Shown piece after piece: positions 2,938-55,405 of a stretch of 64,000 bases of DNA (the stretch's first letter is position 1; each line of letters begins with the position of its first letter). The DNA is taken from contig DALI01000049.1 of assembly GCA_002496725.1 (NCBI GenBank), positions 1,772 to 65,771 on the forward strand. Direction: 5' to 3'. A program made the position numbers and the translations under genes. Source of the DNA: Euryarchaeota archaeon UBA181 (GTDB taxonomy: Archaea > Thermoplasmatota > Poseidoniia > Poseidoniales > Thalassarchaeaceae). A model generated the notes under the pieces. It did no database searches. It was given only the letters and a program-made list of their open reading frames with translations, and had not been told where the DNA came from.

Positions 2938-3324
2938 ATGCCGGGAACTACGAGAGTTGAGATTAGGACATTGAAAGTTGGAAGGTACGTAGCCCTCGAG
3001 GAGAATGCCTACAAGATACTCGGAATGAGCAAGTCAAAGCCCGGAAAGCACGGTTCGGCAAAGGCTAGAATTGAGCTAGAAGATATTTTTACAGGGCAGA
3101 AGAGAAGTCATGTCGGTACTGTTACCGATACCATCCATGTTCCTCTGATAGAGAAGGGTTCTGCGATAGTTACGCATATTCAGGGCAGTGAGGTACATGC
3201 CATGGACAACAAGACATACGAGACACTCATCCTACCTCTGGATAACGAGCTAAACCTTGTTTCAGGAGGGGAAATACAGTGGATGGAAGCCATGGGCAGA
3301 TACAAGGTGACTCGTGACCATTGA
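2938..3324 (+). CDS. eif5a: Translation initiation factor 5A (aIF5A/eIF5A), the hypusine-containing factor.
   Basis: Carries ...GMSKSKPGKHGSAKARIE..., the conserved hypusination loop K-P-G-K-H-G. Length is 128 aa. Confidence 0.85.
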   Translation: MPGTTRVEIRTLKVGRYVALEENAYKILGMSKSKPGKHGSAKARIELEDIFTGQKRSHVGTVTDTIHVPLIEKGSAIVTHIQGSEVHAMDNKTYETLILPLDNELNLVSGGEIQWMEAMGRYKVTRDH

Positions 3325-16949: not shown

Positions 16950-19900
16950 GTGCCTAAAAAAATGCCAATTATAGAGTATGTAGAAGATAGGATGGAGACA
17001 GAAGAGCTCCTTGAGAGGCTATGTCCCCCTGTCAGGAATTGGTTCAAGGACAAGTTCCCCGACTTTACAGAGCCCCAGAAGGTAGCCATTCCGAGGATTC
17101 TCAACGGAGAGCATCTATTGCTCTGCTCGCCCACTGGATCAGGCAAGACTCTGACAGCATTCTTGACAATAATTGATGATCTAGTAAGACGCTCCCTGGA
17201 TGGCACACTTCCAGATTCTGTTCAGTGCGTCTACATCTCTCCAATCAAGGCTCTAGCCAATGATATCGAGAAGAACCTACTCGGCCCTCTTGGCGAGATT
17301 AAGGAAAAATACCTTCCAAGTCGGGCCAAGGAAATAAAAGTTGGACTTAGAACTGGCGATACCCCTCAGAGCGAGAGGCAAAAGATGCTAAGAAAACCCC
17401 CTCACATCTTGATTACAACACCAGAGTCCCTAGGCCTAGGGCTGGCATCAAAGAGATTCAGACCTATCCTTGATCAGATGAAATGGTTCATCATTGATGA
17501 AATGCACTCACTAGTCCCCACTAAGAGGGGGACTCATCTATCTCTCAGTATGGCATTGATGGACTCCGTTGTTTCTTCCGATGTCCAGAGAATTGGAATT
17601 AGTGCAACTATGGAGCCACTGGATGCAGTAGCGGAATTCTTAGTCGCTAGCGACCCAAGAGAATCAGATATTCATTCCCAGAATGACGACAACGAATCCA
17701 GTGAATTGGAAATACAGCCCCAGAAAGTCGCTATCGCAAAAATTTCTGGTGACAGAGAACTAGATTTAGATATTATACTGCCCAGTCCAAGATTCAGCTC
17801 CATCCCTGTAAAGGAAATCTTGGATCATAATGTGGATAGGATCAAAGAATTAGCAGAGGCACATACAACCACACTGGTATTCGTGAATACTAGGAATATG
17901 ACTGAAACAGTAGTCCAGAGGCTGAAGATTGCTGGAATGGAAGGCGTCGAGGGACATCATGGATCTATGGATAAGGCCATTAGACTAGATGTTGAAAGCC
18001 AGCTAAAGAAGGGCCTATTGAGATGCGTAGTATCCTCATCTAGCTTGGAGATGGGGATAGATATCGGTTCTGTTGATCTTGTCATACAAGTGGGTTCTCC
18101 GGGTTCCATAGCCACGGCTCTTCAGAGGATAGGTAGAGCAGGACACCAAGTTGACGGGCTCCCTAGGGCCAGGTTCCTTCCAACATCGCCACATGATTTG
18201 ATGGAGCTCGTAGCGTTACAGATGGCAATCTTAGAAGGCGAGATGGATTTACTGAAATTCCCCGAGAATTCTCTAGACGTACTTGCACAGTTCCTTATCG
18301 GCCTGACAATCATCAGAGAGTGGGATATCGATGACGCGTATCGCTTAGTGACATCATCATGGCCCTACAAATCCCTCCCCTATGATGATTACATAGAGGT
18401 CCTAGATATGCTAGACGAGGAGAGGAGACTCTGGCTCGATTGGGAGGATAATAGATTCGGCAAGAGAGGATTCGCTCAGATGATATACTATACTAATATC
18501 GGGACTATAGCGCCCGACAATAGCTATCTAGTCTTCACAGGAGACGGCACTCTCGTTGGTCAGCTTTCCTCCTCATTCGTATCGAGTCTCAGGAATGGGG
18601 ACGTCTTCCTCCTAGGCGGCTCCACATACAGAGTTGCTAGCATAAGGGGCACTAGGGTCAATGTCACACCAGCAACTGGCTACAGGCCGACTATTCCGTC
18701 TTGGACTGGTGAGGCAAATAGTCGCACTCATGAGCTCAGTCAAGCTGTCCTGAGATTACTCAGCAAAATCTCTGTAGGGGCGAGAATGGGCACTGATTAC
18801 GAACCAATACTGACAGAGGCGTTACAGCTAAACAGGCCAGTGGCCCTTGCTCTGAAGCAGTTCTTGGATGAGCATGTTGCTACTACCTTCCAAGTCCCCT
18901 CCAATGATAGAATACTGATTGAGCAAGTCGACTCCCCACTGCCAACGTATGTGGTTACAACATGCAGAGGAAGGGCATTCAATTTAGCACTCGGATATTT
19001 GTTTGCTGGAATAGCATCCAAAGAAAATATAATTATTCACGAGCTTTCCTTTGATGAGAACGGATTTATGGCCAAGTTGAGCCACGAGGTAGAGATATCT
19101 AAGATCCCCGAAGTCTTCAGGAACGATACCAGTGAAGAAATCCTTCAGAGGTACATGATGGACTCCCAGCTATTCTCCAAGAGATTCAGGGAGGTCTCTT
19201 CTAGGAGCATGCTGAACCCACGGAGAATAGGTGCCGAGGAGGTCAGTCCAAAGCAATTCCAACTAAAAGCCGAGGCCATAATGACCAAACATCGACAGAT
19301 GGAAGGATCAGTAATTATCCGCGAGGCGATGAGTGAAATACTGAATGGCGATTTAGATATGGGGCAATTGCGGAACTTCATCTCAAGGATGGATAGTGAA
19401 GATGTACGTATAGTCCATCGTCGTGTGAAAATGCCATCTCCATTGGGTATGACGCTATTCATGTCTGCATTCGAGGATTTGCTGAGCCTTAGGACCAGGG
19501 CATACCTGATCAAAGACGTCGATCCCGAAATCCTAAGGCGCCTATTGGGGGCTAGATCACTAGCCACAGATCTCGATAGGGAGATGATAGGTGAGTACTA
19601 TCAGTCTAAGGTAGTCGTACCGAGAAACTCAATTGACCTACTGAGACTGATGGATATGGGTGGTGGCCTAGAGCGTGAACTGACTAATCCACTATACAAT
19701 TCAAAATTAAGCGGGATTGAAATTCCCGTGATTAGGAAATGGGTCCACGAGCTTGCAGAGAGGGGACTGATTACCAAGGTCAGGAATACTAATCATGAAC
19801 AGATTGACGATAAGTGGTTCTCTATGAGGATGGCTGGAGTACATGGGACGTTGGGGTGCCTGGCTGTTGCTGGGGCATCGGAGATGGAGGACCTTAGGGC

Positions 19901-22292
19901 GCTTTACACAGGAGGTCTGACTTATGAGGTCGCAGAAGGATTCAGCGGTGCCACGCCATCAAAGTGGGTTTCATCAAATCTTTCTGACCCTCTTGACTGC
20001 CTCAGACTGAAACTTTTGGATATGCTTGGTTCAGAAGGCCCACAAACCCTAGAATCACTGAGTGACAGACTGCCCTTCCCAATAGCTCAAGTCGAGGCAG
20101 TACTTCAAGAGCTAGAAATGAGGAATTTAGTCTCAATTGGATTCTTCACCCAAACCGAGGAGGGTGAATTCATTCTCAGAGTTGACGAGTATAGGATCAC
20201 AGGAGGAAGCGTCGAAGTAGTAGACTACAGAACTCTCCAGACACTACTGCTCCAGAAATCATTTACGAAATTCGCTGAGCCTTCCGAGGCTATTAGATCA
20301 CTGGCATTAATTCAGAGAAGGGACGAACTACTCCACAGGGTGGAGAACTTTAGGTTCAGGGATTGGAAGGACTTTAAGCATGATAAAGACGTTTTCAATG
20401 GCAGACTTCTCCATAACAGGGTGGGCTATACTACCTTTGACCAGATACCAATGCTTCTGGGATTACGTTCAGAGCCTTGGATGGGTTCCTTAGAAGAAGA
20501 GCTTCTTGATAAGATTCCTGAAGATGGCATTACTAGGACAGAATTACTATCGGAATATCCAAGGGGCAAGGAAAACCAGCATATCCAGAAGAGCGTGAAA
20601 AGGGCGCTCTCAAATTTAGAACGACAACTGGTTGTGGCCAAGCAGTATCTCGATGTACCCAACAGGAAAAGATCGATAGCCATATTCAGGCGAATCCATG
20701 GCGTAGTAAAGCCGTTGGATTTTCCCGAGGCACTGTCTGCACTGATATCCAAAATAGGCCCTGTCAGATTACACACACTGAGATTCTTCGTCAGTAGGCC
20801 AGTCGAGGAACTAGCCGAGGTCCTCCGGGAATTAGAAACCGAAGGAAGCATATGCCGTGTAGTCGCTCTACAACCGGATCCAACCGATTACTATTCGTCG
20901 CATGTAGACGCCGAGAGGCTACTTTCTCCTATGCCCGAAGATAGGGAGATGCGTATCCTCGCCCAATCAGATCCCTTCTGCAGTCGTTTCATCCAAGAAG
21001 TTAGGATGATACTGAAGCAAGGATGGTACCATCCCGTCTTCAAAGGAGTGGACCCAATAGGGAGAATTTTGATGTTTGTAGTCAACGACTACCTGGAGAT
21101 AAAGGATGTCAATATCCCCCACTCATACCTAGATGAATTCAAATCAACCTTCAATGATCTTTTGGAAAACTACCGAGATCGACTCGTCGATGTTTCTGTA
21201 ATGCATGCTTTTAACGGAGTCCCTGTTCATGACTGCGATGATAATATTCAGAGTATTCTTTCTGAACTTGGATTCGTCTCAATGGGTGATGGTGAGAGAT
21301 ATATCCGAGGAGGAGTTGTTGAACCTAGATCTAGGAACAAGGTGAACAGACTTCTCTTCCACACTCACAATATCCATCAAATCAGTAGATGGGAAAATGA
21401 GACTTACGCTTTGAAGGAAATCAACGAATTGAGGGATGACTTCGCATTGAGGGGCCGTTGCGAAATGTTCAGGGTAGATCTACAATCTATGGCGGCAACC
21501 GAGCAATTGCATCAAGGAACAAATCTCAGGGGTCATCAGGTATGGGCAAGGCTCCCACATTTCCAGAGGCTCCTTGCGATTAGGAACGCCCCTCCTGACG
21601 ACGATGACTTTGGTATTCTTGAGTTCTTCAGGAGTCATAACGATCCAGCAGTATTCATGGAGAGACTAGCAATGCGCAGAGCTGAGTTTAGGAAATTAAT
21701 CTCTCCCCTGGTGAGAAGCGGTCACTTAGTTCAGGACTACAGAGGGGGGTTCAAGACCGTAGAGCCAGTGAAGGGCGTCGATCTCTGGACAATAAAGAGA
21801 ACATACCTGAGGGAACTAGTGGAGGACTATCCGGTCATCTCAATGAAGCAGTTTGAGAGGCTGGCAGGAACGCCTTTCTCACCTGAGGAAATTAGCGATG
21901 TCCTCCACGAATTTGAAGAGGATGGGACACTGATCAAAGGATTCCTCATAGATGATCAGCATGATATTAGTTGGGGCAGAAAAGACCTATTGGAGTCAGA
22001 GGGGATACCAAAGACAAGAGATTTGGTAATACCTCCCTCAGACCCATTGATACATTATTTTGGAGGTATCCTGCGAGAGAGATTTGGATTCGGTTCTGCA
22101 TATCTGGTGTTTCACAAGGAGGAGCCAATTGCGGCATTCAAGGCAAATACGAGAAATGCGACAATCGATGTAACAGACTTCGTGGGCGATTCAGAGTTAG
22201 AGAAAGAGGCCCTGAGGGTGATGAAAGAATTCGCATGGGAACATCAAATGCCCCTAACAGGGGACCTATATGAGAAAATGAGATCAAGATGA
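16950..22292 (+). CDS. lhr: Lhr-like large ATP-dependent helicase. It has an SF2 DExH core plus about 1300 aa of extra C-terminal domains (1780 aa in total).
   Basis: Helicase motifs FTEPQKVAIP, CSPTGSGKT, IIDEMHS, ISATM and QRIGRAGH. The C-terminal third is wHTH/YcaQ-like in character. Confidence 0.75.
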   Translation: MPKKMPIIEYVEDRMETEELLERLCPPVRNWFKDKFPDFTEPQKVAIPRILNGEHLLLCSPTGSGKTLTAFLTIIDDLVRRSLDGTLPDSVQCVYISPIKALANDIEKNLLGPLGEIKEKYLPSRAKEIKVGLRTGDTPQSERQKMLRKPPHILITTPESLGLGLASKRFRPILDQMKWFIIDEMHSLVPTKRGTHLSLSMALMDSVVSSDVQRIGISATMEPLDAVAEFLVASDPRESDIHSQNDDNESSELEIQPQKVAIAKISGDRELDLDIILPSPRFSSIPVKEILDHNVDRIKELAEAHTTTLVFVNTRNMTETVVQRLKIAGMEGVEGHHGSMDKAIRLDVESQLKKGLLRCVVSSSSLEMGIDIGSVDLVIQVGSPGSIATALQRIGRAGHQVDGLPRARFLPTSPHDLMELVALQMAILEGEMDLLKFPENSLDVLAQFLIGLTIIREWDIDDAYRLVTSSWPYKSLPYDDYIEVLDMLDEERRLWLDWEDNRFGKRGFAQMIYYTNIGTIAPDNSYLVFTGDGTLVGQLSSSFVSSLRNGDVFLLGGSTYRVASIRGTRVNVTPATGYRPTIPSWTGEANSRTHELSQAVLRLLSKISVGARMGTDYEPILTEALQLNRPVALALKQFLDEHVATTFQVPSNDRILIEQVDSPLPTYVVTTCRGRAFNLALGYLFAGIASKENIIIHELSFDENGFMAKLSHEVEISKIPEVFRNDTSEEILQRYMMDSQLFSKRFREVSSRSMLNPRRIGAEEVSPKQFQLKAEAIMTKHRQMEGSVIIREAMSEILNGDLDMGQLRNFISRMDSEDVRIVHRRVKMPSPLGMTLFMSAFEDLLSLRTRAYLIKDVDPEILRRLLGARSLATDLDREMIGEYYQSKVVVPRNSIDLLRLMDMGGGLERELTNPLYNSKLSGIEIPVIRKWVHELAERGLITKVRNTNHEQIDDKWFSMRMAGVHGTLGCLAVAGASEMEDLRALYTGGLTYEVAEGFSGATPSKWVSSNLSDPLDCLRLKLLDMLGSEGPQTLESLSDRLPFPIAQVEAVLQELEMRNLVSIGFFTQTEEGEFILRVDEYRITGGSVEVVDYRTLQTLLLQKSFTKFAEPSEAIRSLALIQRRDELLHRVENFRFRDWKDFKHDKDVFNGRLLHNRVGYTTFDQIPMLLGLRSEPWMGSLEEELLDKIPEDGITRTELLSEYPRGKENQHIQKSVKRALSNLERQLVVAKQYLDVPNRKRSIAIFRRIHGVVKPLDFPEALSALISKIGPVRLHTLRFFVSRPVEELAEVLRELETEGSICRVVALQPDPTDYYSSHVDAERLLSPMPEDREMRILAQSDPFCSRFIQEVRMILKQGWYHPVFKGVDPIGRILMFVVNDYLEIKDVNIPHSYLDEFKSTFNDLLENYRDRLVDVSVMHAFNGVPVHDCDDNIQSILSELGFVSMGDGERYIRGGVVEPRSRNKVNRLLFHTHNIHQISRWENETYALKEINELRDDFALRGRCEMFRVDLQSMAATEQLHQGTNLRGHQVWARLPHFQRLLAIRNAPPDDDDFGILEFFRSHNDPAVFMERLAMRRAEFRKLISPLVRSGHLVQDYRGGFKTVEPVKGVDLWTIKRTYLRELVEDYPVISMKQFERLAGTPFSPEEISDVLHEFEEDGTLIKGFLIDDQHDISWGRKDLLESEGIPKTRDLVIPPSDPLIHYFGGILRERFGFGSAYLVFHKEEPIAAFKANTRNATIDVTDFVGDSELEKEALRVMKEFAWEHQMPLTGDLYEKMRSR

Positions 22293-23895: not shown

Positions 23896-24537
23896 ATGTT
23901 CCCGCCAATGAGGGATAGGGATAGCTTGTACGCCCCACTCCATCTATTGCCCCTCCCTACAAATATGACATGGGGGGGCAAGATAGCATACTTAGATCGT
24001 GATGGAGTCATAATCAGAGGATTTGAGAGCTATGTCAACAATCCAGACGAAGTCTTTGTCCTCGATGGTGCCCCAAAGGCAGTTGGTGATCTTAGGAGAC
24101 TTGGTTTCAGGGTTTGCATCGTTACCAACCAGTCACCTGTAGGAAGAGGGATTTGGAGTAGAGAAAACCTCGCCTCTATTCATGATAAAGTTAGGTCAGA
24201 ACTACTTTCCGAAGATGCAGATGCCATTCTCGACCTAATTCTCCATAGCCCCTATGCTCCATGGCATAATTCGTGGGCCAGAAAACCAAATCCTGGAATG
24301 CTCGAGGCAGGCAGACAAATTATCGATGCCGCTGAGTCAAGCATCTTACTGTCTGAAGGGGACATTAAGTTCGGAGAGGAATGGAAAAATCGCCCATCTG
24401 AGAATTCCTCGATAATGGTAGGTGACAGGATCGTAGATATGGAAGCGGCGAAAGCTCACGGAACCCGCTCATTCAGATGTAATCCCGATGTGGGAATAAG
24501 TGATGTAATATCTGAAATCTTGGAGCTGAATGGATGA
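23896..24537 (+). CDS. gmhB: HAD-family D,D-heptose 1,7-bisphosphate phosphatase.
   Basis: HAD motif I AYLDRDGVII, with IVTNQSP and GDR further along. It follows gmhA directly. Confidence 0.65.
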   Translation: MFPPMRDRDSLYAPLHLLPLPTNMTWGGKIAYLDRDGVIIRGFESYVNNPDEVFVLDGAPKAVGDLRRLGFRVCIVTNQSPVGRGIWSRENLASIHDKVRSELLSEDADAILDLILHSPYAPWHNSWARKPNPGMLEAGRQIIDAAESSILLSEGDIKFGEEWKNRPSENSSIMVGDRIVDMEAAKAHGTRSFRCNPDVGISDVISEILELNG

Positions 24538-25790
24538 GTACAAGCAACACAAGCATTGTTAGGATTGGGTTAGATGATACCGATCACCCAGAATTCGGAT
24601 GTACTACACATTCATTCCATGACCTATTGAGCAATCTGACCACCATCCCTAGTGTAATCGTACTCGAGAGGATGCTTGTACGGCTCTGGCCGTATGCGTC
24701 AAGGAGGACCAGGGGGAACGGCGCACTATCGGCGACCTTGGAAATTCCATCTGAATCCAAGATTCAGTTTATCGACTCTTGCGCTGAATGGTTCGATTCA
24801 TTATTGTCCGAAATATCACATTATCCCGAAATATCAAATTCTGCAACACCCGCTCTTTTAATTTCGTTCGACCAGGCTCCCCCAAAATGGTACTGGGAGA
24901 CAGTAAGGGGGGAAGTAAACCTAGTGGATCGGGAATCTGAAATCAGAAGCTCGGGAGTGACTATCTTCTCTCATCCTGATAACTGGGGGATGGTTGGTGC
25001 TAGTGCCGCTATCTCATGGGAACCCGGAATTAATCACTCTTGGGAGCTAATCGCTTGGAGAGAAGATAGCAAAATAGGGTCAAGAAGGGCGGTTTCCAAG
25101 GATTCTGTGTTCGAGATGTCCAAACTATTCCCTGAGACCTTCCTGAATAGGGACCCTACGGCAGATAAGGGCATTATCGCCCCTAGGACCCCCTGCCCAG
25201 TTCTTTACGGTATCAGGGGTTCAAGTAAGGATGCGGTGGAATCAGCAAACTCCTGGTTACAACATAAGAATAGCACCGAGAAGTGCCTTGATTGGGCATC
25301 ACATAAGACTAATCAGCTCTCAGACGATCATCTCCCAGGACCTATGAGTGGGACAGTAATCACTTCGCCCGAGGTTCTGAAAGGTGCCCATGCGAGTTTG
25401 AAAGTAATTTCCGGTGGAAAAGGGGAGACATTAGTTGCATTCAGTGAAGGGGGGCCAGTGAATAAGCTACTTAGACAATTATCGCCAGGGGATAGAATTT
25501 CTTGGATGGGCCTAATTTCTCCCGATCGCTCAATACATCTGGAAAGGCTGAGAATTGAATCTGCTTCCCCTAGGATCTCATCCAGGCCTAGATGTTGTGG
25601 TAAGTCGATGAGGAGCAAGGGCAGGAATCAGCCCCTCTTCTGCTTAAGGTGTGGAAATAAGGAAAGCAAAATATGGCTATCAGATAACTGGTCTCCTGTG
25701 GGTGTCCCAAGTATTGACGGTTGGGTCCAGCCCCCTCCATCTCAGAGAAGACACCTTTCAATGCCCTTGGAACATGGAATTCCGGCATAG
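24534..25790 (+). CDS. tiaS: tRNA(Ile2) 2-agmatinylcytidine synthetase TiaS.
   Basis: N-terminal IGLDDTDHPEFGCTTH kinase-like start and a C-terminal zinc ribbon CCGKSMRSKGRNQPLFCLRCGNK. Length 418 aa. The ATGA overlap with gmhB suggests an operon. Confidence 0.75.
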   Translation: MSTSNTSIVRIGLDDTDHPEFGCTTHSFHDLLSNLTTIPSVIVLERMLVRLWPYASRRTRGNGALSATLEIPSESKIQFIDSCAEWFDSLLSEISHYPEISNSATPALLISFDQAPPKWYWETVRGEVNLVDRESEIRSSGVTIFSHPDNWGMVGASAAISWEPGINHSWELIAWREDSKIGSRRAVSKDSVFEMSKLFPETFLNRDPTADKGIIAPRTPCPVLYGIRGSSKDAVESANSWLQHKNSTEKCLDWASHKTNQLSDDHLPGPMSGTVITSPEVLKGAHASLKVISGGKGETLVAFSEGGPVNKLLRQLSPGDRISWMGLISPDRSIHLERLRIESASPRISSRPRCCGKSMRSKGRNQPLFCLRCGNKESKIWLSDNWSPVGVPSIDGWVQPPPSQRRHLSMPLEHGIPA

Positions 25791-28394: not shown

Positions 28395-29147
28395 CTAGCG
28401 ATTAGAAGATAGTCGCCCAGAAGAGATAATCCACGACCCTCTTCCCCTTTCCCATGTTTTCTCACCTATCAAAATTGAACTACTCGACATTGCAGGTGAA
28501 TCCACAACTAGAGTCTCATATTCTCCCCCTTCTCCATCAGGGTTAAAACGATATTTGAGAGACGTTTCTATCAATTCCTCAATTTCCTCTGCCCCCAATT
28601 TCTTCCCTACCCAGCTACTATCAAGTCCGTCCGCAGATACCGATGAAAGCCTGACATCAAAACCGTGTCGGGGAAAACAGCGCATGTGTTCAACTGGATC
28701 ATGATGCCATAATGGTGAGAATGACTTGATCCCTAGTCGTGAACACATCCTATCTATTCTGGTCCTTTGATAGTCGGATCTTAGTGCTCCGGTTACCAAG
28801 GCATCTATTTCCAGTGCTTCTTCATGTAAGATTATTCCATTCTTATCCCAAGTTTCTGGCCAGAATGAGTTGAAGTCAGCCACTACATTAGTTTCGCCAG
28901 CAATCCCCCTCTGCAAGTCTTCCACCTCTTTCTCCTCTGCCCCTTCGGTAATAATTGGGAGCCAAGGTATGCCTGAAGAGGCGGATTGTAGTCCAGCAGC
29001 ACACACTCCTCCTGTTTGAAACATCATAGAGTCATCACCAGTTACACACAGGGTAACTAGTGCCTTTACATCCCATCCTCTCATTATGCACCACCATGTG
29101 GCGTAGGACGAGTCCTTTCCCCCCGAGCATAGTACCGCCACACGCAC
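28395..29147 (-). CDS. PP-loop ATP pyrophosphatase of the diphthine–ammonia ligase family (Dph6/MJ0570-like). The start is probably a GTG near 29147.
   Basis: PP-loop AVLCSGGKDSSYA near the N-terminus. In-frame GTG codons lie at 29147 and 29141. Divergent from psmA. Confidence 0.45.
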   Translation of the reverse strand: MRVAVLCSGGKDSSYATWWCIMRGWDVKALVTLCVTGDDSMMFQTGGVCAAGLQSASSGIPWLPIITEGAEEKEVEDLQRGIAGETNVVADFNSFWPETWDKNGIILHEEALEIDALVTGALRSDYQRTRIDRMCSRLGIKSFSPLWHHDPVEHMRCFPRHGFDVRLSSVSADGLDSSWVGKKLGAEEIEELIETSLKYRFNPDGEGGEYETLVVDSPAMSSSSILIGEKTWERGRGSWIISSGRLSSNR

Positions 29148-29246
29148 ATCTCTTCGTACGGACCTTTCCGCTTGAATGCAACGAAGGAAGACCCCCTTCC
29201 CAACCAACCTTGATAAGAGGCCGTTGGCGCATGGGTGTTGATTACG

Positions 29247-29954
29247 ATGCAACCGAGCGGACGCGGATACGATTCTTCAGTAGGAACTTTCTCACCAGAC
29301 GGACGACTTCACCAAGTCGAGTATGCCCGAGAGTCGGTCAAGAGAGGCTCAACAACAGTAGGGGTAAAATTCCGAGATGGAGTCATACTAATTGTCGCAA
29401 AAAGAATACCTAGCAAGTTGGTAATACCCGAGTCAATCGAGAAGATGTACAAGATTGATGATCACATAGGAATAACGACCTCGGGCCTCGTTGCTGATGC
29501 CAGGCAGTTAGTTGACAGAGCTAGGGTCCAGTGCCAGATTAACAAGATGACTTATGGGGACTCAATCGATGTCACCACTCTAGTGAAGAAGATGTGTGAC
29601 TATAAGCAGTCATTCACCCAATATGGAGGTGCAAGGCCATTCGGTACAGCATTACTCATTGCAGGCGTAGATTCGGAGGGGGCTCATCTCTACGAGACTG
29701 ATCCTTCAGGTGCGTATGGCTCGTACCAAGCAGGGGCCATTGGTAGTGGCCGCAGCGAAGTCATTTCTTACTTCGAAGAAAAATGGAAGCCAGGAATGAC
29801 AGAAAATGCGGCCATAAAGACCGGTTTAGAGGCACTTTCAGCTACTCTTGAAGATGGACTCTCCGATGAATCAGTGGAGATATGTGTGATTAATGAAGGC
29901 GGCTACAGGGAACTAGGCCCTGAAGATCTGCAGAAGCATATTTCCAAGCTTTAG
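29247..29954 (+). CDS. psmA: Proteasome alpha subunit.
   Basis: YDSSVGTFSPDGRLHQVEYA N-terminal signature. Confidence 0.9.
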   Translation: MQPSGRGYDSSVGTFSPDGRLHQVEYARESVKRGSTTVGVKFRDGVILIVAKRIPSKLVIPESIEKMYKIDDHIGITTSGLVADARQLVDRARVQCQINKMTYGDSIDVTTLVKKMCDYKQSFTQYGGARPFGTALLIAGVDSEGAHLYETDPSGAYGSYQAGAIGSGRSEVISYFEEKWKPGMTENAAIKTGLEALSATLEDGLSDESVEICVINEGGYRELGPEDLQKHISKL

Positions 29955-36034: not shown

Positions 36035-37348
36035 TCACAAAACCGACTCGTAAGGGGATCTATCTATGCCCGGGGTCAATGTTGCATCCATGCCAATCTT
36101 ACTGGTAATCCCATCTTCGCTACGACTTGGATCAAGACTCGAGCCCCTCTGTCCCGTCAAGATCATGGTATCCTTGTCAGGTTGCCATCTAGTCATCAGT
36201 GCCCACTCGACCCTTTTGGAATCAGAAATATCGATATCTGTGTCTACGACAACAACTTGCTTCATTGAGGGGTGCCCCTGAAAAGCCGCTTCTATAGCTA
36301 ACATACCGTCTCCTTCTTTCTTTGGTACTATCTGCACTACTGATGAAAGCCATCCACAACCACCATCGGTCATCTGCACGTCAACACATTCTACTACCTT
36401 GGAAACAGAATTCTTGATCGTTGGAGCCCTTGGCATCCCCATAAGAGTTCTATGCTCGATCCCAGTTGGAATAAGGGCATGGAATATTGGATCAATTCGA
36501 TGATTGACTTTCTCATATCTTATGACGTGCTCCTGCCTGATATCGTCTACCGTACCCGTGATATCCACGTAAGGCCCCTCATCATCCCTCTCAGTGGTTA
36601 TTTTGGCTTCCATGGCATATTCTGCGTCTGCCGGTACCATCACGCCATTAGGGAGTATTACCACCTTCAGAGGAGTTCCGTGTAGCTTTCTGTGTAGGGA
36701 CGAGGCGACTGTCAACTCATCCACATAATCCGAGAAAGACATAGCAGCTGCCAAAAGAACGGTTGGATCAGCACCATTCACTACGGCTATTGGAACGTCC
36801 TCCCCGGCTTCTGCAGCTTCTGCACTGATGGTCCTCAGATGCCTAGGGACAAGCCTAGCCACCGTATGCTCAGGATCTCTTAGTAACTGACGATGGAAAG
36901 ACACATTCCTGATTCCTGAATACTGAGCAACAATTATTGATGCCGATTGGTATCTACCTCCATCCTCTCTGAAATGCCAAGGAATTGGAATCTTCGTCAA
37001 ATCTACCTTTTCTTGACCCGACTGCATCACAGGAGCTTCAGACGCCTCTACAATCTCTGGCTCCGATGGATTTTCCATGGCCCATGCTAATACATCAATC
37101 AGGTCTCCAGGTGAGATATCAAACATTTCGCATAGCCTAGATTTTTCTAAAACATTCAGAGCGGCCCTATGGCCTGGTGCTTCATCTATCTCATCGAAAA
37201 TAAGTGGAACATCTCCTAGACGGTTAGAGGCATCTATCATGCCGTGCAATACACTAATTGTTTCCTTTACGTTCATGACGTCTCCAAGCATGTCCCGGAA
37301 GGCCATATCAGGGGGCGGAGTCAATACATGCTTGAATGTTAGTGACAT
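36035..37348 (-). CDS. UbiD-family prFMN-dependent (de)carboxylase. Candidate functions are anhydromevalonate-phosphate decarboxylase or a quinone-pathway decarboxylase.
   Basis: UbiD hallmarks KIPIPWHFREDGGRYQSASIIVA and ...E..DEGPYVDITGTVD. Length 437 aa. Confidence 0.75.
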   Translation of the reverse strand: MSLTFKHVLTPPPDMAFRDMLGDVMNVKETISVLHGMIDASNRLGDVPLIFDEIDEAPGHRAALNVLEKSRLCEMFDISPGDLIDVLAWAMENPSEPEIVEASEAPVMQSGQEKVDLTKIPIPWHFREDGGRYQSASIIVAQYSGIRNVSFHRQLLRDPEHTVARLVPRHLRTISAEAAEAGEDVPIAVVNGADPTVLLAAAMSFSDYVDELTVASSLHRKLHGTPLKVVILPNGVMVPADAEYAMEAKITTERDDEGPYVDITGTVDDIRQEHVIRYEKVNHRIDPIFHALIPTGIEHRTLMGMPRAPTIKNSVSKVVECVDVQMTDGGCGWLSSVVQIVPKKEGDGMLAIEAAFQGHPSMKQVVVVDTDIDISDSKRVEWALMTRWQPDKDTMILTGQRGSSLDPSRSEDGITSKIGMDATLTPGIDRSPYESVL

Positions 37349-51774: not shown

Positions 51775-52989
51775 ATGGCAGTCGAGGCGATTTCATTTTC
51801 AGATTCGCGATGGAGGAGCAGGCTTTCTTCCATGCAAGTACCACTGGCTGTCAGCTCCAATAGTTCCGCACTCAATTGCCTAGAAACACTAATTTCCCAT
51901 GGAAGACTGTCTTTCAGTCAAGGTATTGATCTAATGAAAAATCCCGATCTTTCTTCTGTTACTTCTTTGGCTAACATGGTCAAGTCTGCACGATTCTCCA
52001 GTCATGTCTTCTTCAATGAAAATTTACATGTAAATTCGACTAATATTTGTGTTCTCGCATGTAGATTCTGTGCCTTTCGAAAGGGACCAAGGCATCCAGA
52101 CGCCTATTCACTAGATGTGAACCAATATCTGGAAAGAATAGATCCCTACTCTTCCAGAATTGATGAGGTCCATACAGTTGGTGGGCTACACCCTAGCTGG
52201 ACAGTATCAGAGTATTGCAAACTATTCTCTAGTGTTAAAGAAAAGTATCCGCACATACACATCAAAGCACTCACAGCGGTTGAGATAAAGCATCTTTCCT
52301 CTAGGTCTTCACTTTCTTTCCACCAAACTCTTTCCACACTTGCCGAGGCAGGTCTGAACTCATTACCAGGAGGGGGGGCAGAGATTCTTGTGGATAAGGT
52401 CAGAGATAGAATCTGCAGGGGCAAGGAATCATCCGCCGAGTATCTGGAGATTCACGGCATTGCACACTCCCTTGGAATGCCAACAAACTGTACAATGTTA
52501 TTCGGAACCGTTGAATCGATAGAAGATAGAATTACACATCTAGTCAGACTAAGAGAGCAACAAGATGAATCATGTGGTTTCCAATGCTTTGTCCCATACC
52601 CGTTTCTTCCGGATAAATCTAGGCTCCCTGAAGCACAGCTTGCAACCGGTCAGGAAATCATCAGAATGATTTCCGTTTCTAGACTTATGCTAGACAATAT
52701 ACCTCACATCAAGGCCTACAGGATGAACATTGGAGATAAATTATCTTCATTCGCTATCAATTGTGGCGCCGATGATGTCGATGGTACAGTTGGTCATGAG
52801 GAGATAATGCATGAGGCAGGTAGTAAGACCAGCCTCAGTACAACTTCTGAACAAATGGCCAGGATGATAGTCTCAGCTGGTTCCATACCAGTAAAGAGAA
52901 ATTCATCATACACCCAATTTGAGATTATTGAACTTCCCGAGTCTAGAAATTCAAAATCACTTCCTATTCTTACTATGGAGGGGAATTAG
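51775..52989 (+). CDS. Radical SAM enzyme of the futalosine-pathway MqnC/MqnE family (aminofutalosine synthase or cyclic dehypoxanthinyl-futalosine synthase).
   Basis: NICVLACRFCAF CxxxCxxC-variant cluster typical of MqnC/MqnE/CofH-type enzymes. Adjacent to mqnA. Confidence 0.55.
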   Translation: MAVEAISFSDSRWRSRLSSMQVPLAVSSNSSALNCLETLISHGRLSFSQGIDLMKNPDLSSVTSLANMVKSARFSSHVFFNENLHVNSTNICVLACRFCAFRKGPRHPDAYSLDVNQYLERIDPYSSRIDEVHTVGGLHPSWTVSEYCKLFSSVKEKYPHIHIKALTAVEIKHLSSRSSLSFHQTLSTLAEAGLNSLPGGGAEILVDKVRDRICRGKESSAEYLEIHGIAHSLGMPTNCTMLFGTVESIEDRITHLVRLREQQDESCGFQCFVPYPFLPDKSRLPEAQLATGQEIIRMISVSRLMLDNIPHIKAYRMNIGDKLSSFAINCGADDVDGTVGHEEIMHEAGSKTSLSTTSEQMARMIVSAGSIPVKRNSSYTQFEIIELPESRNSKSLPILTMEGN

Positions 52990-53785
52990 TATCAGTTGGA
53001 CAGATGTCATAGGTCGAGTTTCTTTCTCAAATTGCGATCCAATATTTGATGGGATTAATCAAGAATGGACAATACTTTCCGCTCCCCCTGCGTGGCTCAC
53101 AGGCCATATCATGCGAAGAGACTGTATCACAGCACCAATTCCTTCGGCAGATTATGCGAAGAATAGTGAAGAGTTACTTCTCCTTCCAGATATTGGTATA
53201 GTCAGTAGCGGGGAAGTAGGGTCTGTACTACTTTTTGGTAATCGACCCATAGAGAAAATGAGAGATATCGCACTACCAACCGACTCTTCCACATCTAAGG
53301 TATTACTGAGCTGGATAGTTAGAAATAGAGGTTTAGACCCTAAATTTGTAGAGTCTGGGCCAGATATCAACTCAATGTTAGAGAAATGCGATGGAGCTCT
53401 GTTGATTGGAGATAGGGCAATATTGGCATCTCTCTCAAATCCAGACCTAGTTAGAATGGATCTAGGTGCAGAGTGGACAAGAATCACTGGTCTCCCAATG
53501 GTCTTCGGTGTTTTTGTTGCGAGGAGGGATTCCTCTGAAGAAATTCTAAGGAATGCACATTCAGATATGATTAATCAGGTTGAATTATTTGATAATGATA
53601 AAGTTTGGAGGGATGGCGTAATAAGAAGAACTTCTAAGAAATTAGGATTCCCAGTAGACAGGGTGGAAGAATATTTCAGGACTGAGGTCAGGAATAGAAT
53701 GTCTGAAGACGACATCAAAGGATTAATGACTTTCCTGAAGGAAGCATGCGACATGGACGAAGAACCAATTTGGCTAGATATCTAA
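52919..53785 (+). CDS. mqnA: Chorismate dehydratase MqnA-like (PF02621 family).
   Basis: N-terminal IGRVSFSNCDPIF resembles the IGxISYLNxxP motif. ...SVLLFGN, STSKVLL and DGALLIGDRAIL are also present. The only canonical start is TTG 52919, overlapping the upstream gene by 71 nt. Confidence 0.5.
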   Translation: MRLLNFPSLEIQNHFLFLLWRGISISWTDVIGRVSFSNCDPIFDGINQEWTILSAPPAWLTGHIMRRDCITAPIPSADYAKNSEELLLLPDIGIVSSGEVGSVLLFGNRPIEKMRDIALPTDSSTSKVLLSWIVRNRGLDPKFVESGPDINSMLEKCDGALLIGDRAILASLSNPDLVRMDLGAEWTRITGLPMVFGVFVARRDSSEEILRNAHSDMINQVELFDNDKVWRDGVIRRTSKKLGFPVDRVEEYFRTEVRNRMSEDDIKGLMTFLKEACDMDEEPIWLDI

Positions 53786-54261
53786 TCCGTGTAGTCCAGC
53801 TTTTTGCTGGAGACCCACTCTAGAAGATCTAATGCAACTTCGCATGATTCTGCGACCACGGTATCCTTGTCATCTTTGAATTTCTCAAGTACTGAGAGGG
53901 CCGTTCTATCACCTATGGCACCTAATGCTTCTGCCGCTTCATGCCTAACCATTACATCCTCATCAAAGTCCTGCAATCTATCGATTAAGTATGGAAGAGC
54001 GGCTGAATCTTGCATTTGCCCCATGACATATGCGATCTCATGTTTCAGTAATGCCGATGAAGATCCAAAAGCCGCGGCTAGGGCTTCTACTGATTCCTGC
54101 CCCCCTATGTTCCTAAGTGCAAATAAGGCCCTCATCCTCTGGAACATTTTCTCATCTTCATCACAAATCGTCATTCTCAGTTTTCTCACATCATCAATAT
54201 TACTCGGTGGTGCCGGATCAACAGAATCGAATTCACTGACCTCTGGTCTTTTCTCTTCCAT
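53782..54261 (-). CDS. Half-length deoxyhypusine hydroxylase (DOHH)-like HEAT-repeat protein with two His-Glu metal-binding motifs.
   Basis: FALRNIGG...SALLKHEIAYVMGQMQDSAALPYL...DVMVRHEAAEALGAIGD...ESCEVALDLLEW is collinear with each half of eukaryotic DOHH. The N-terminus SVDPAPPS matches the linker that begins the second DOHH half. Confidence 0.55.
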   Translation of the reverse strand: MEEKRPEVSEFDSVDPAPPSNIDDVRKLRMTICDEDEKMFQRMRALFALRNIGGQESVEALAAAFGSSSALLKHEIAYVMGQMQDSAALPYLIDRLQDFDEDVMVRHEAAEALGAIGDRTALSVLEKFKDDKDTVVAESCEVALDLLEWVSSKKLDYTD

Positions 54262-55119
54262 TTATTCACCCGACCCAACGAAAACTATTGAATCAACATC
54301 AAGATCTTCTCTTACCATTCCAATTTCCTGACCCCTTTTTAGAAAAAGTCGAATTGCTTCCCTACCATCTTCTCCGTAATCCAAGGTTCGATTATTGACA
54401 TACATGCCGACGAATTCTTCGTTGGTTTCGTCATCAATTCCCCTTCCCCATTCCTTGGCGAATTTGAGAGCCTCCGTTGGATTATTGAGAGAGTGCTTGA
54501 TACTGTTACGAACATCTTCAGTTATCATTTCACAGAGCTCAATCCCAAGATCCTTCCTCACTACATTTCCCCCCAGGGGTAGTGGGAGGCCAGTTTCTTC
54601 ATTCCACCATACTCCCAGGTCTAAAACTAGATTCACGCCTTCATCTTTCCAAGTTAGTTGACCTTCATGAATAATCACACCAACATCATAGTCGCCTCTC
54701 TGAACGGCAGGCATTATGTCATCAAATGGTACAACTTCGTATCTCACATCTCCCAAAGCGAGTTTTAGAGCCAAATAAGCACTAGTCCCGACTCCTGGTA
54801 TCGCGAAGACTTTCCCTCTAGCATCTTCCACTGTCATCTCTTCCCTTGAAATTATCATCGGACCATAACCCTCTCCCATGGATGCTCCACAATTCATAAG
54901 ATGATACTTTTCAGATATCTCTGGAAATGAGTGAATACTGACGGCAGAAACCTCATAATCACCATTGATAGCATGTTTATTCAATGTCTCAATATCCAAC
55001 AGAACATGTTCATAACCCCTCCCTCCGGTATCTATTGCTCCTGTCGTCATGGCATGGAACATGAATGCATCATCTGGGTCTGGGGAGTGTCCGACTCGGT
55101 AAGAGCGCGCCTCGTTCAT
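54262..55119 (-). CDS. mqnD: 1,4-dihydroxy-6-naphthoate synthase MqnD-like (PF02621 family).
   Basis: N-terminal YRVGHSPDPDDAFMFHAM signature of the MqnA/MqnD family. 285 aa. Confidence 0.55.
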   Translation of the reverse strand: MNEARSYRVGHSPDPDDAFMFHAMTTGAIDTGGRGYEHVLLDIETLNKHAINGDYEVSAVSIHSFPEISEKYHLMNCGASMGEGYGPMIISREEMTVEDARGKVFAIPGVGTSAYLALKLALGDVRYEVVPFDDIMPAVQRGDYDVGVIIHEGQLTWKDEGVNLVLDLGVWWNEETGLPLPLGGNVVRKDLGIELCEMITEDVRNSIKHSLNNPTEALKFAKEWGRGIDDETNEEFVGMYVNNRTLDYGEDGREAIRLFLKRGQEIGMVREDLDVDSIVFVGSGE

Positions 55120-55207
55120 GTACCGTCGCAAGCAATTAGATTCAAAATTCCTCCGTGTCAGAACCCTCCGTAGTAAGAGTGAATAGTCGGTTGTATTACG
55201 GGACTAC

Positions 55208-55405
55208 ATGCCCGATCCCAATAAGCTCTCCACTGCTACTGGACAATTGGGCCCAATATGCTCTGTTACGGGGAAGCCTATCACATTCTCAGAAGCAATT
55301 GTTGTAGATGACAGGTATGTTTGTTACGAAGCATATGTGGAGATGATGGGTCAAGGTTCTGCAACTGACTCCCGAGAAGTCCCCTCTAAGCTTCCCCTAG
55401 AATAG
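55208..55405 (+). CDS. Small YHS/TRASH-like domain protein.
   Basis: GPICSVTGKPITFSEAIVVDDRYVCYEAY resembles the YHS metal-binding fold. 65 aa. Confidence 0.25.
   Translation: MPDPNKLSTATGQLGPICSVTGKPITFSEAIVVDDRYVCYEAYVEMMGQGSATDSREVPSKLPLE

What the first reader, a model, noticed from the sequence alone, without database searches (positions are those of the whole stretch)
53782..54261. Half-size deoxyhypusine hydroxylase homologue: candidate archaeal hypusine hydroxylase acting as a homodimer
This 159-aa ORF is collinear with one half of eukaryotic DOHH. Its motifs FALRNIGG, LLKHEIAYVMGQMQD, VMVRHEAAEALGAIGD and SCEVALDLLEW sit at the positions of the human DOHH motifs (LFTLRGLGG, LLKHELAYCLGQMQD, PMVRHEAGEALGAIGD). 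Its N-terminus SVDPAPPS matches the inter-half linker (SVDPAPPAEE) that begins the second DOHH half. Eukaryotic DOHH is a pseudo-symmetric di-iron enzyme whose two halves each contribute two His-Glu pairs. A protein carrying only two HE pairs could form the 4×HE di-iron site only as a homodimer, i.e. the presumed ancestral state. To my knowledge the enzyme that hydroxylates deoxyhypusine in archaea has not been assigned. The substrate aIF5A, with the KPGKHG hypusination loop, is encoded in this same window at 2938..3324. The gene is wedged between mqnA and mqnD and has start/stop junctions with both neighbours, so it is expressed as part of that block.
Basis: partly seen in the sequence, partly recalled or inferred. 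Interest (0 to 1): 0.85.

Follow-up and report, generated by a model that had tools for sequence, protein, structure and literature searches.

The report
Half-size deoxyhypusine hydroxylase in marine archaea
Marine Group II archaea carry a strongly conserved gene for exactly one half of the eukaryotic enzyme that completes the hypusine modification of translation factor 5A; it probably works as a pair of identical halves, although the hypusine literature says archaea have no such enzyme.

Summary
ORF 53782..54261 (-) encodes a 159-aa, four-HEAT-repeat protein. Its best solved relative by far is human deoxyhypusine hydroxylase (DOHH, E 1e-74). It aligns to both halves of DOHH (47% and 50% identity) and keeps both His-Glu iron motifs, the substrate-contact Gly and the SVDPAPP linker motif.

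It is a single-copy core gene of Marine Group II archaea (Poseidoniales). At least 261 species genomes carry it, it is always half-size, and it is under strong purifying selection (dN/dS about 0.04). It always sits directly behind mqnD. No full-length DOHH was seen in these archaea.

The most likely reading is a homodimeric di-iron, O2-dependent hydroxylase that converts deoxyhypusine to hypusine on aIF5A. Dimerisation and activity are inferred, not shown.

Its sequence is intermediate between the eukaryotic N and C halves and is nested in neither. That fits a pre-duplication form, but the tree cannot be rooted.

- Only mqnD is co-directional; mqnA is convergent.
- The family appears confined to Marine Group II, so it does not explain hypusine in Crenarchaeota.
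- KEGG and IMG pipelines already label it DOHH (K06072) in published supplementary tables, though no paper searched discusses it.

The parts
53782..54261 (-). Half-size DOHH homologue: 159 aa, four HEAT hairpins preceded by a roughly 21-residue N-terminal extension
   Evidence: ORF. Human DOHH E 1e-74, both halves aligned. AF2 model pLDDT 87.7 with 8 helices. Foldseek best hit 4D4Z, rmsd 0.7 A over 130 columns.
54205..54225 (-). S13-V-D-P-A-P-P19 motif, matching the inter-half linker of eukaryotic DOHH
   Evidence: Aligned to human SVDPAPP. D, P and A are kept in 227/227 half-size proteins. In 88 eukaryotic linkers D is 99%, P 100%, A 86% and P 92% conserved. Low confidence in the monomer model.
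54037..54042 (-). His74-Glu75, equivalent to human H56-E57 and H207-E208 (iron ligand His; substrate-binding Glu)
   Evidence: Codons CAT GAG read. Alignment. Kept in 226/227. Residue roles from PMC9117371.
54019..54021 (-). Gly81, equivalent to human G63 and G214 (implicated in binding the deoxyhypusine side chain)
   Evidence: Alignment. Kept in 227/227. Role from PMC9117371, which prints G65/G214; the alignment places it at H+7, i.e. G63/G214.
53938..53943 (-). His107-Glu108, equivalent to human H89-E90 and H240-E241 (both iron ligands)
   Evidence: Codons CAT GAA read. Alignment. Kept in 227/227. The 33-residue spacing from H74 is the same as in both human halves.
54262..55131 (-). MqnD-like gene (1,4-dihydroxy-6-naphthoate synthase family) directly upstream on the same strand; its TAA stop abuts the ATG of the half-DOHH
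   Evidence: PF02621. PDB TTHA1568/3A3U 4e-51 and AF1704 1e-70. Junction GGTGAATAAATGGAA. The adjacency holds in every related locus that has upstream sequence.
52919..53785 (+). MqnA-like chorismate dehydratase gene, convergent, overlapping the 3' end by 4 bp. Genomic context only, not co-transcribed.
   Evidence: PF02621. SCO4506 chorismate dehydratase 5e-25. Coordinates.
2938..3324 (+). aIF5A, the presumed substrate, with the SKPGKHGSAK modification loop; about 50 kb away and not linked
   Evidence: Translation. PF21485 IF5A-like_N, 2e-13.

Best explanation
The gene encodes a four-HEAT-repeat protein that is a true, half-length member of the deoxyhypusine hydroxylase lineage and a core single-copy gene of Marine Group II archaea.

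Each chain carries one iron-binding set (His74, His107, Glu108) plus the substrate-contact residues Glu75 and Gly81. All of these lie on the conserved layer of second helices. The most likely mechanism has two steps. Two identical chains pack face to face through that layer, as the N and C halves of eukaryotic DOHH do, and so build a di-iron centre at the twofold interface. [quoted passage not shown]

Shown here: DOHH-specific homology, the fold, residue conservation, strong purifying selection, the constant half length, and the presence of aIF5A and DHS in the lineage.

Inferred: dimerisation, iron binding, substrate and product.
For: **Homology and fold**
- Human DOHH is the best solved relative at E 1e-74, and both halves align.
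- Identity is 47% to the N half and 50% to the C half.
- The AF2 monomer is confident (pLDDT 87.7, 8 helices).
- It superposes on 4D4Z at 0.7 A over 130 columns, E 2e-10, against about 1e-5 and 2-7 A (mostly 6-7 A) for alphaRep proteins.

**Functional residues**
- All 15 columns that are at least 90% conserved in both eukaryotic halves are kept.
- H74 and E75 are kept in 226/227, and G81, H107 and E108 in 227/227, half-size proteins at 57-99% identity. Their roles in the human enzyme are given in PMC9117371.
- Conservation is concentrated on the HE-bearing second helices. The window's residues are shared with eukaryotic halves at 58-65% there, against 27-28% on the first helices. That fits a buried functional face. 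[quoted passage not shown]

**A real, constrained, single-copy gene**
- dN/dS is about 0.04.
- In distant genomes it is more conserved than its neighbours MqnD, MqnA, MqnE and PriS.
- At least 261 GTDB species genomes carry it.
- The 226 sequences taken at 150-180 aa from the two protein searches are nearly all 154-164 aa.
- No paralogue was found. The two-copy genome bins duplicate the whole syntenic block, which indicates mixed bins.

**Pathway and lifestyle**
- DHS is in 97-99% of MGII genomes and the DOHH-labelled cluster in 75-78%.
- aIF5A is in this window.
- MGII are described as obligate aerobes (PMC6336850), which suits an O2-dependent enzyme.
Against: - No experiment or multimer model supports dimerisation. 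The only attempt was a head-to-tail fusion folded without an alignment. It was low-confidence (pLDDT 58) and matched 4D4Z only loosely (TM 0.53-0.57, rmsd 8.5 A).
- The modification state of MGII aIF5A is unknown, because the organisms are uncultured.
- The tight, conserved coupling to mqnD could point to another substrate.
- A symmetric homodimer would carry two SVDPAPP segments where the eukaryotic enzyme has one. It would also have to bind an asymmetric substrate on a twofold axis.
- From memory, not checked here because the papers are not held: separately expressed halves of the human enzyme were reported inactive.
Confidence: 0.68

Rival explanations
1. It is a di-iron (or mono-iron) oxygenase of the DOHH fold that acts on something other than aIF5A. 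One possibility is a step tied to menaquinone (futalosine pathway) biosynthesis, given its conserved translational coupling to mqnD.
For: The mqnD stop abuts or overlaps the start codon in every locus examined, across 57-99% protein identity. mqnA and a radical-SAM mqnE/C gene lie alongside.
Against: - The residues implicated in binding the deoxyhypusine side chain in human DOHH (the E57/E208 and G63/G214 equivalents) are invariant.
- All 15 universally conserved DOHH columns are kept.
- From established knowledge of the futalosine pathway, none of its described steps needs an O2-dependent hydroxylation.
- Synteny within one archaeal order can persist by descent alone.
Confidence: 0.12
2. It is an ordinary non-catalytic PBS-lyase-type HEAT scaffold, and its resemblance to DOHH is generic repeat similarity.
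For: Pfam and NCBI annotation see only HEAT_2 and HEAT_PBS. NCBI names it 'HEAT repeat domain-containing protein' or 'PBS lyase', and Prokka calls it 'HEAT repeat-containing taxis protein F'.
Against: - The DOHH match (1e-74) is 30 or more orders of magnitude better than any HEAT scaffold match.
- NCBIfam lyase models reach 18-40 bits against cut-offs of 300 to 600.
- The His-Glu pairs, absent from alphaRep and PBS repeats in the alignments, are invariant.
- The structural match to 4D4Z is 0.7 A, against 2-7 A (mostly 6-7 A) for the scaffolds.
Confidence: 0.03
3. This rival concerns origin, not function. The half-size gene is not a relic of the pre-duplication enzyme. It is a secondary reduction of a full-length eukaryotic DOHH that an ancestor of Marine Group II acquired by horizontal transfer.
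For: - Among prokaryotes the family was seen only in Marine Group II, whereas DOHH is universal in eukaryotes.
- Identity to eukaryotic halves is unusually high, at 43-45% on average.
- The N-terminal SVDPAPP segment otherwise occurs as the linker ahead of the C half.
- MGII genomes are known for interdomain transfer, but this rests on the title of PMC4122925 only.
Against: - The MGII sequences are not nested in either half. In a neighbour-joining tree N, C and MGII form three separate clades.
- MGII is closer to both halves (42.7% and 45.0%) than the halves are to each other (36.8%).
- Diagnostic columns are mosaic and interleaved: 10 N-like, 4 C-like and 2 other. A single truncation or a single crossover would not produce that pattern.
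- GC content matches the neighbouring genes.
- Against these points: bootstrap support for N and C monophyly is weak (43% and 27%), and there is no root.
Confidence: 0.3
4. It works with a different partner, or as a monomer with a single iron, rather than as a homodimer. A possible partner is another HEAT protein, or the WD40 protein encoded just downstream in many lineages.
For: - Dimerisation is untested.
- A large MGII sub-lineage has an ~790-800-aa WD40 gene immediately downstream on the same strand.
- The fused-dimer model was uninformative.
Against: - No second DOHH-like half was found in any locus or search.
- The WD40 gene is absent from this window and from many lineages that keep the half-DOHH unchanged.
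- Each chain has only a 2-His-1-Glu set, which in DOHH forms one of two iron sites at a pseudo-twofold interface.
Confidence: 0.07

Closest known systems
Eukaryotic deoxyhypusine hydroxylase (human DOHH, PDB 4D4Z; yeast Lia1), EC 1.14.99.29
   Same: - HEAT-hairpin fold.
- 47% and 50% identity to its two halves.
- His-Glu pairs with the same 33-residue spacing, the conserved Gly at H+7, and the SVDPAPP linker motif.
- Conserved second-helix face.
- Occurs together with DHS and IF5A.
   Different: - One chain has four HEAT repeats and two His-Glu pairs, not eight and four. The di-iron site can only form between chains.
- It is found in an archaeal order, not in a eukaryote.
- A dimer would carry two linker-like segments.
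- Activity is untested.
[quoted passage not shown]
   Same: The same repeat type (PF03130, PF13646) and a similar size for the small members. This is why annotation pipelines call it 'HEAT repeat' or 'PBS lyase'.
   Different: These proteins have no His-Glu pairs at the repeat positions. Sequence and structure scores are far weaker, and the curated NCBIfam cut-offs are missed by roughly 10- to 30-fold.
Internally symmetric di-iron proteins thought to descend from homodimers, such as symerythrin and the ferritin-like superfamily (recalled from memory, not tested here)
   Same: The same evolutionary logic: a metal site built on a twofold axis by two equivalent halves, later fixed by duplication and fusion.
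   Different: These have an unrelated four-helix-bundle fold. No sequence or structural relationship is claimed.

Membership tests
Deoxyhypusine hydroxylase (DOHH/Lia1, KEGG K06072) | Sequence similarity specific to DOHH rather than to HEAT repeats in general | tested here: met
   E 1e-74 to 4D4Z, against 2e-44 or weaker for multi-repeat scaffolds. In a search of 1.84 billion representatives, the top hits outside MGII and giant HEAT arrays are two-stretch proteins of about 300 aa; all nine whose names were looked up are eukaryotic or unnamed, none prokaryotic.
Deoxyhypusine hydroxylase (DOHH/Lia1, KEGG K06072) | Iron-ligand residues (human H56, H89, E90 / H207, H240, E241) and substrate-binding residues (E57/E208, G63/G214) | tested here: met
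   H74, H107, E108, E75 and G81 align to them and are kept in 226-227 of 227 orthologues. Roles are from PMC9117371. Only one set is present per chain.
Deoxyhypusine hydroxylase (DOHH/Lia1, KEGG K06072) | Eight HEAT repeats in a symmetrical dyad with four His-Glu motifs in one polypeptide | tested here: not met
   159 aa, 8 helices forming 4 hairpins, and two His-Glu pairs. The listed hits to the window protein are nearly all 157-161 aa, and the sampled family is 154-164 aa with a few longer calls. The dyad could exist only as a homodimer.
Deoxyhypusine hydroxylase (DOHH/Lia1, KEGG K06072) | HEAT-repeat fold superposable on a DOHH domain | tested here: met
   Foldseek: 4D4Z chains A and B, rmsd 0.7 A over 130 columns, TM 0.81 normalised to the query. 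Caveat: the model comes from AlphaFold2, which has seen 4D4Z.
Deoxyhypusine hydroxylase (DOHH/Lia1, KEGG K06072) | Assembly of a di-iron centre between two four-repeat units | tested here: inconclusive
   A head-to-tail fusion folded without an alignment gave pLDDT 58 and pTM 0.45. It matched 4D4Z at TM 0.53-0.57 and rmsd 8.5 A. No multimer or metal modelling was available.
Deoxyhypusine hydroxylase (DOHH/Lia1, KEGG K06072) | O2-dependent hydroxylation of deoxyhypusine on (e/a)IF5A | not testable with these tools
   Needs biochemistry, or mass spectrometry of native aIF5A.
Deoxyhypusine hydroxylase (DOHH/Lia1, KEGG K06072) | Occurs together with IF5A and deoxyhypusine synthase | tested here: met
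   aIF5A is in the window. DHPS is in 153/158 and 91/92 MGII genomes, and the DOHH-labelled cluster is in 119/158 and 72/92 (PMC6336850 Supplementary Data 10). No DHS was found among the 10 ORFs of this window that were scanned.
Phycobilin-lyase / NblB HEAT proteins (NCBIfam NF045915, NF058502, NF058505) | Score at or above the curated family cut-off | tested here: not met
   40.5, 23 and 18 bits against cut-offs of 300, 330 and 600.

The most novel reading that the evidence does not exclude
The Marine Group II protein is a living representative of the pre-duplication ancestor of DOHH: a homodimeric four-HEAT di-iron enzyme. On this reading MGII aIF5A carries true hypusine made by a eukaryote-type pathway. 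Eukaryotic DOHH then arose from such an archaeal half by tandem duplication and fusion, with the conserved N-terminal SVDPAPP segment becoming the inter-domain linker.
Probability: 0.3. Interest if true: 0.85.

Novelty: new variant of a known kind. Interest (0 to 1): 0.72.

Why it matters
**It contradicts a standing statement in the field.** Hypusine papers from 2012 to 2021 say that archaea have deoxyhypusine synthase but no DOHH orthologue, which left archaeal hypusine formation unexplained. Here is a clear DOHH-lineage gene that is core to one of the most abundant archaeal groups in the surface ocean.

**It makes open questions testable.**
- Do some archaea make hypusine by the eukaryotic route?
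- Can a four-repeat half build the di-iron site as a homodimer?
- How did a HEAT scaffold become an oxygenase (PMC9040561)?

A natural half-enzyme would also be a compact model for the unusually stable peroxo-diiron intermediate.

**Limits.**
- It does not explain hypusine in Crenarchaeota, which lack this gene according to the literature.
- Annotation pipelines already attach the KEGG DOHH label to it.

Tried and rejected
- **Fused-dimer model.** I folded a head-to-tail fusion of two copies as a stand-in for a dimer. It ran without an alignment, was low-confidence and was not informative.
- **AlphaFold-database fold search.** I wanted it to look for half-size relatives in other prokaryotes, but the library was not available.
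- **A possible second subunit.** I suspected the 60%-identical cluster P0235 might be a paralogous partner. It sits in the same mqnD context in other Thalassarchaeaceae lineages, so it is an orthologue.
- **Two-copy genome bins.** UBA105 and SAT218 looked like paralogy, but both copies lie in the full syntenic block, which indicates mixed bins.
- **DHS in the window.** None of the 10 mid-size ORFs scanned is DHS. I took DHS presence in the lineage from PMC6336850 instead.
- **Limits on 'MGII only'.**
  - The GTDB scan used MGII-specific peptide patterns and returned only the best 80 of 261 hits.
  - The representative search lists only the top 150, with a cut-off of 178 bits.
  - Half-size relatives below about 55% identity in other lineages would therefore have been missed by both.
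- **Phylogeny.** The neighbour-joining bootstrap is too weak to fix the branching order of N, C and MGII. No maximum-likelihood software or outgroup was used.
- **Papers not held.** The two founding DOHH papers (PMC1324997, PMC1868894) could not be read.
- **First dN/dS script.** It timed out. I reran it on 16 loci.
Full report
**What is there**

The minus strand at 53782..54261 holds an ATG-to-TAG ORF of 159 aa. Pfam recognises only generic HEAT_2 and HEAT_PBS repeats. The NCBIfam phycobilin-lyase and NblB models score 18-40 bits against cut-offs of 300 to 600.

Against every sequence in the PDB the picture is quite different. Human deoxyhypusine hydroxylase (DOHH, 4D4Z) comes first at E 1e-74. 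The 159-aa protein aligns twice to it: residues 25-151 to DOHH 12-138, and residues 6-150 to DOHH 144-288. The N-terminal SVDPAPP segment lies on the human inter-half linker. Identity is 47% to the N half and 50% to the C half. The next PDB hits are designed alphaRep HEAT proteins, which have no His-Glu pairs at the corresponding positions.

**Structure**

AlphaFold2, run with an alignment of 21 orthologues, gives a confident model (pLDDT 87.7). It has eight helices, i.e. four HEAT hairpins. Residues 1-21, which include SVDPAPPS, are of low confidence. Foldseek against the PDB returns the two chains of 4D4Z first, at rmsd 0.7 A over 130 columns and E 2e-10. The alphaRep proteins follow at about 1e-5, with rmsd of 2-7 A (mostly 6-7 A). 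The model may owe some of this accuracy to 4D4Z having been in AlphaFold's training data.

**Functional residues**

A review of DOHH (PMC9117371) lists these roles:
- H56, H89, E90, H207, H240 and E241 anchor the di-iron centre.
- E57, E90, E208, E241 and two glycines bind the deoxyhypusine side chain.

In the window protein these correspond to H74, H107 and E108 (one iron set), E75, and G81 (His+7). The 33-residue spacing between the two His-Glu pairs is the same as in both human halves.

I pooled 227 half-size proteins from two database searches, spanning 57-99% identity to the window protein. H74 and E75 are kept in 226 of them. G81, H107 and E108 are kept in all 227, as are D15, P16 and A17 of the linker-like motif. 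In total, 66 of 159 positions are at least 98% conserved. All 15 alignment columns that are at least 90% conserved in both halves of 85-88 diverse eukaryotic DOHHs are also kept.

Conservation is concentrated on the second helix of each hairpin, which carries the His-Glu pairs. The window's residues there are shared with eukaryotic halves at 58-65%, against 27-28% for the first helices. That is what one expects if this helix layer is a buried functional face. [quoted passage not shown]

**Whose gene it is**

The exact protein occurs on Tara Oceans contigs and in a marine genome bin. The closest 120 database proteins are nearly all 157-161 aa (one gene call is 196 aa) and 77-99% identical. Where they carry a name, it is Euryarchaeota, Poseidoniales or Thalassarchaeaceae, i.e. 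Marine Group II (MGII).

A scan of one genome per GTDB species found 261 genomes with a relative. The best 80 were all MGII. A more divergent set, found with the 60%-identical protein P0235, is again half-size (154-164 aa), MGII where named, and sits in the same genomic context.

An exhaustive HMMER search of 1.84 billion representatives gave three kinds of top hit:
- the MGII clusters;
- two-stretch proteins of about 300 aa, eukaryotic wherever a source organism was named (a fungus, an amphipod and a EukProt transcriptome) and otherwise unnamed metagenome proteins;
- giant HEAT arrays.

No full-length DOHH with an archaeal name appeared anywhere. The restriction to MGII is not proven. The GTDB scan used MGII-specific peptide patterns, and the representative list ends at 178 bits, so half-size relatives below about 55% identity would not have been shown.

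**Is the gene functional?**

- For orthologue pairs with unsaturated dS, dN/dS is about 0.04, like its neighbours mqnD (0.045) and priS (0.028).
- In more distant genomes the protein stays 69-81% identical, while MqnD, MqnA, MqnE and PriS fall to 61-73%, 50-63%, 57-66% and 44-61%.
- GC content (45.2%) matches its surroundings.
- Two bins with two copies carry the whole syntenic block twice, so they are mixed bins rather than evidence for a paralogous partner.

**Genomic context**

The upstream gene on the same strand (54262..55131) is MqnD-like (Thermus TTHA1568/3A3U, 4e-51). Its TAA stop is immediately followed by the ATG. This adjacency holds in every related locus that has upstream sequence, including the most divergent lineages. 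It also appears in a published MGII gene table.

The MqnA-like gene (52919..53785; chorismate dehydratase, 5e-25) is on the opposite strand and converges on the ORF with a 4-bp overlap.

The mqnD coupling is the main argument for a rival reading, in which the protein is an oxygenase with a quinone-related substrate. I rate that at about 0.12 for three reasons. The aIF5A-side-chain contact residues are invariant. From established knowledge of the futalosine pathway, none of its described steps needs an O2-dependent hydroxylation. Gene order within one order can also persist by descent alone.

**Pathway partners and lifestyle**

aIF5A, with an SKPGKHGSAK loop, is at 2938..3324. In the MGII pangenome of Tully (PMC6336850, Supplementary Data 10, sheet 'MGII Core'), deoxyhypusine synthase is in 153/158 and 91/92 genomes. 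A single gene cluster labelled 'DOHH; deoxyhypusine monooxygenase' by GhostKOALA is in 119/158 and 72/92. The paper's criterion for that sheet is presence in at least 70% of both MGIIa and MGIIb genomes. The same paper describes MGII as obligate aerobes, which suits an O2-dependent enzyme.

**Mechanism proposed**

Each chain supplies one 2-His-1-Glu iron site, and a di-iron centre needs two. There is no second DOHH-like gene. The simplest working assembly is therefore a homodimer that packs through the conserved second-helix layer, reproducing the pseudo-twofold arrangement of the eukaryotic enzyme. It would hydroxylate deoxyhypusine on aIF5A.

This part is inference. My only proxy for a dimer model was a head-to-tail fusion folded without an alignment, and it was low-confidence and uninformative. 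Open issues are how an asymmetric substrate binds on a true twofold axis, and what the two SVDPAPP segments do in a dimer.

**Ancestral or derived?**

I split 85-88 eukaryotic DOHHs into N and C halves and compared them with 15 MGII sequences over the 127 core columns.
- Mean identity is 42.7% between MGII and N halves and 45.0% between MGII and C halves, but only 36.8% between N and C halves. The archaeal protein is thus closer to both halves than they are to each other.
- In a neighbour-joining tree N, C and MGII form three separate clades. Bootstrap support is 96% for MGII but only 43% for N and 27% for C.
- At columns where the N and C consensus differ, MGII is a mosaic: 10 N-like, 4 C-like and 2 other at the 0.4 threshold. 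The N-like and C-like positions are interleaved along the sequence.
- With consensus sequences, N to C is 58%, MGII to N is 55% and MGII to C is 51%.

These results argue against a simple truncation of a modern C half or N half. They fit a lineage that separated around or before the duplication. Two things keep open an ancient transfer followed by reduction, which I put at about 0.3: the tree is unrooted and poorly supported, and the gene's distribution among archaea is narrow.

**What is known already**

- Hypusine papers state that no DOHH orthologue exists in archaea (2012 PMC3306375, 2016 PMC5178350, 2018 PMC6105217, 2021 PMC8153317).
- Full-text searches combining DOHH or hypusine with Marine Group II, Poseidoniales, Asgard and related terms found no paper that discusses this protein.
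- The automatic label exists, however. IMG names many members 'deoxyhypusine monooxygenase'. The KEGG K06072 label appears in supplementary tables of two MGII papers, without comment in their main texts.

The gene and its label are therefore in the databases. Three things appear to be new: that the protein is half-size, that it contradicts the field's standing statement, and what it implies for mechanism and origin. I class it as a new variant of a known kind.

**Verdict**

Confidence that this is a DOHH-lineage iron enzyme is high, at about 0.9. Confidence in the full proposal, a homodimeric deoxyhypusine hydroxylase of aIF5A, is about 0.68. Interest is 0.72.

Noticed in passing
L008 6542..8902; L091 4547..6922; L092 4532..6916; L093 4523..6928: In a large MGII sub-lineage an ~790-800-aa WD40 beta-propeller gene lies directly downstream of the half-DOHH on the same strand (mqnD, half-DOHH, WD40). 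It is absent at this position in the window.
   Followed up: partly
window 55208..55405 (+): A small 65-aa ORF between mqnD and priS is called as a 64-65-aa gene (85 aa in one locus) in nearly every related locus examined. It has no Pfam match and its function is unknown.
   Followed up: no
window 36..2807 (+): A 923-aa ORF is filled with Asp-rich DxDxDG/DTDDD-type repeats and ends in a hydrophobic tail followed by RRKED. It looks like a calcium-binding surface protein with a PGF-CTERM-like anchor.
   Followed up: no
window 28395..29252 (-), 24534..25790 (+), 36035..37348 (-): The window also holds a diphthamide-synthase-family gene, a TiaS (tRNA-Ile agmatidine synthetase) gene and a UbiD-family decarboxylase, which may be the menaquinone MqnL step. 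Several translation-apparatus modification enzymes therefore share this window with aIF5A.
   Followed up: partly
L027 and L061 (UBA105); L068 and L078 (SAT218): Two GTDB representative genome bins each carry two diverged copies of the whole priS, mqnD, half-DOHH, mqnA, mqnE block. This points to mixed-population bins rather than gene duplication.
   Followed up: yes
window 16950..22292 (+): A very long ORF of 1780 aa that I did not examine.
   Followed up: no
PMC9723583 supplementary file 4 (SIMO Bin 19-2, contig 36, 41114..41594): Three pipelines name the same MGII gene differently: Prokka 'HEAT repeat-containing taxis protein F', eggNOG 'PBS lyase HEAT domain protein' (best hit Nitrosopumilus Nmar_1251, 7e-22) and KEGG 'DOHH K06072'. 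The eggNOG best hit was not a protein of the MGIIa reference genome MG2-GG3, although the neighbouring genes did hit that genome.
   Followed up: no
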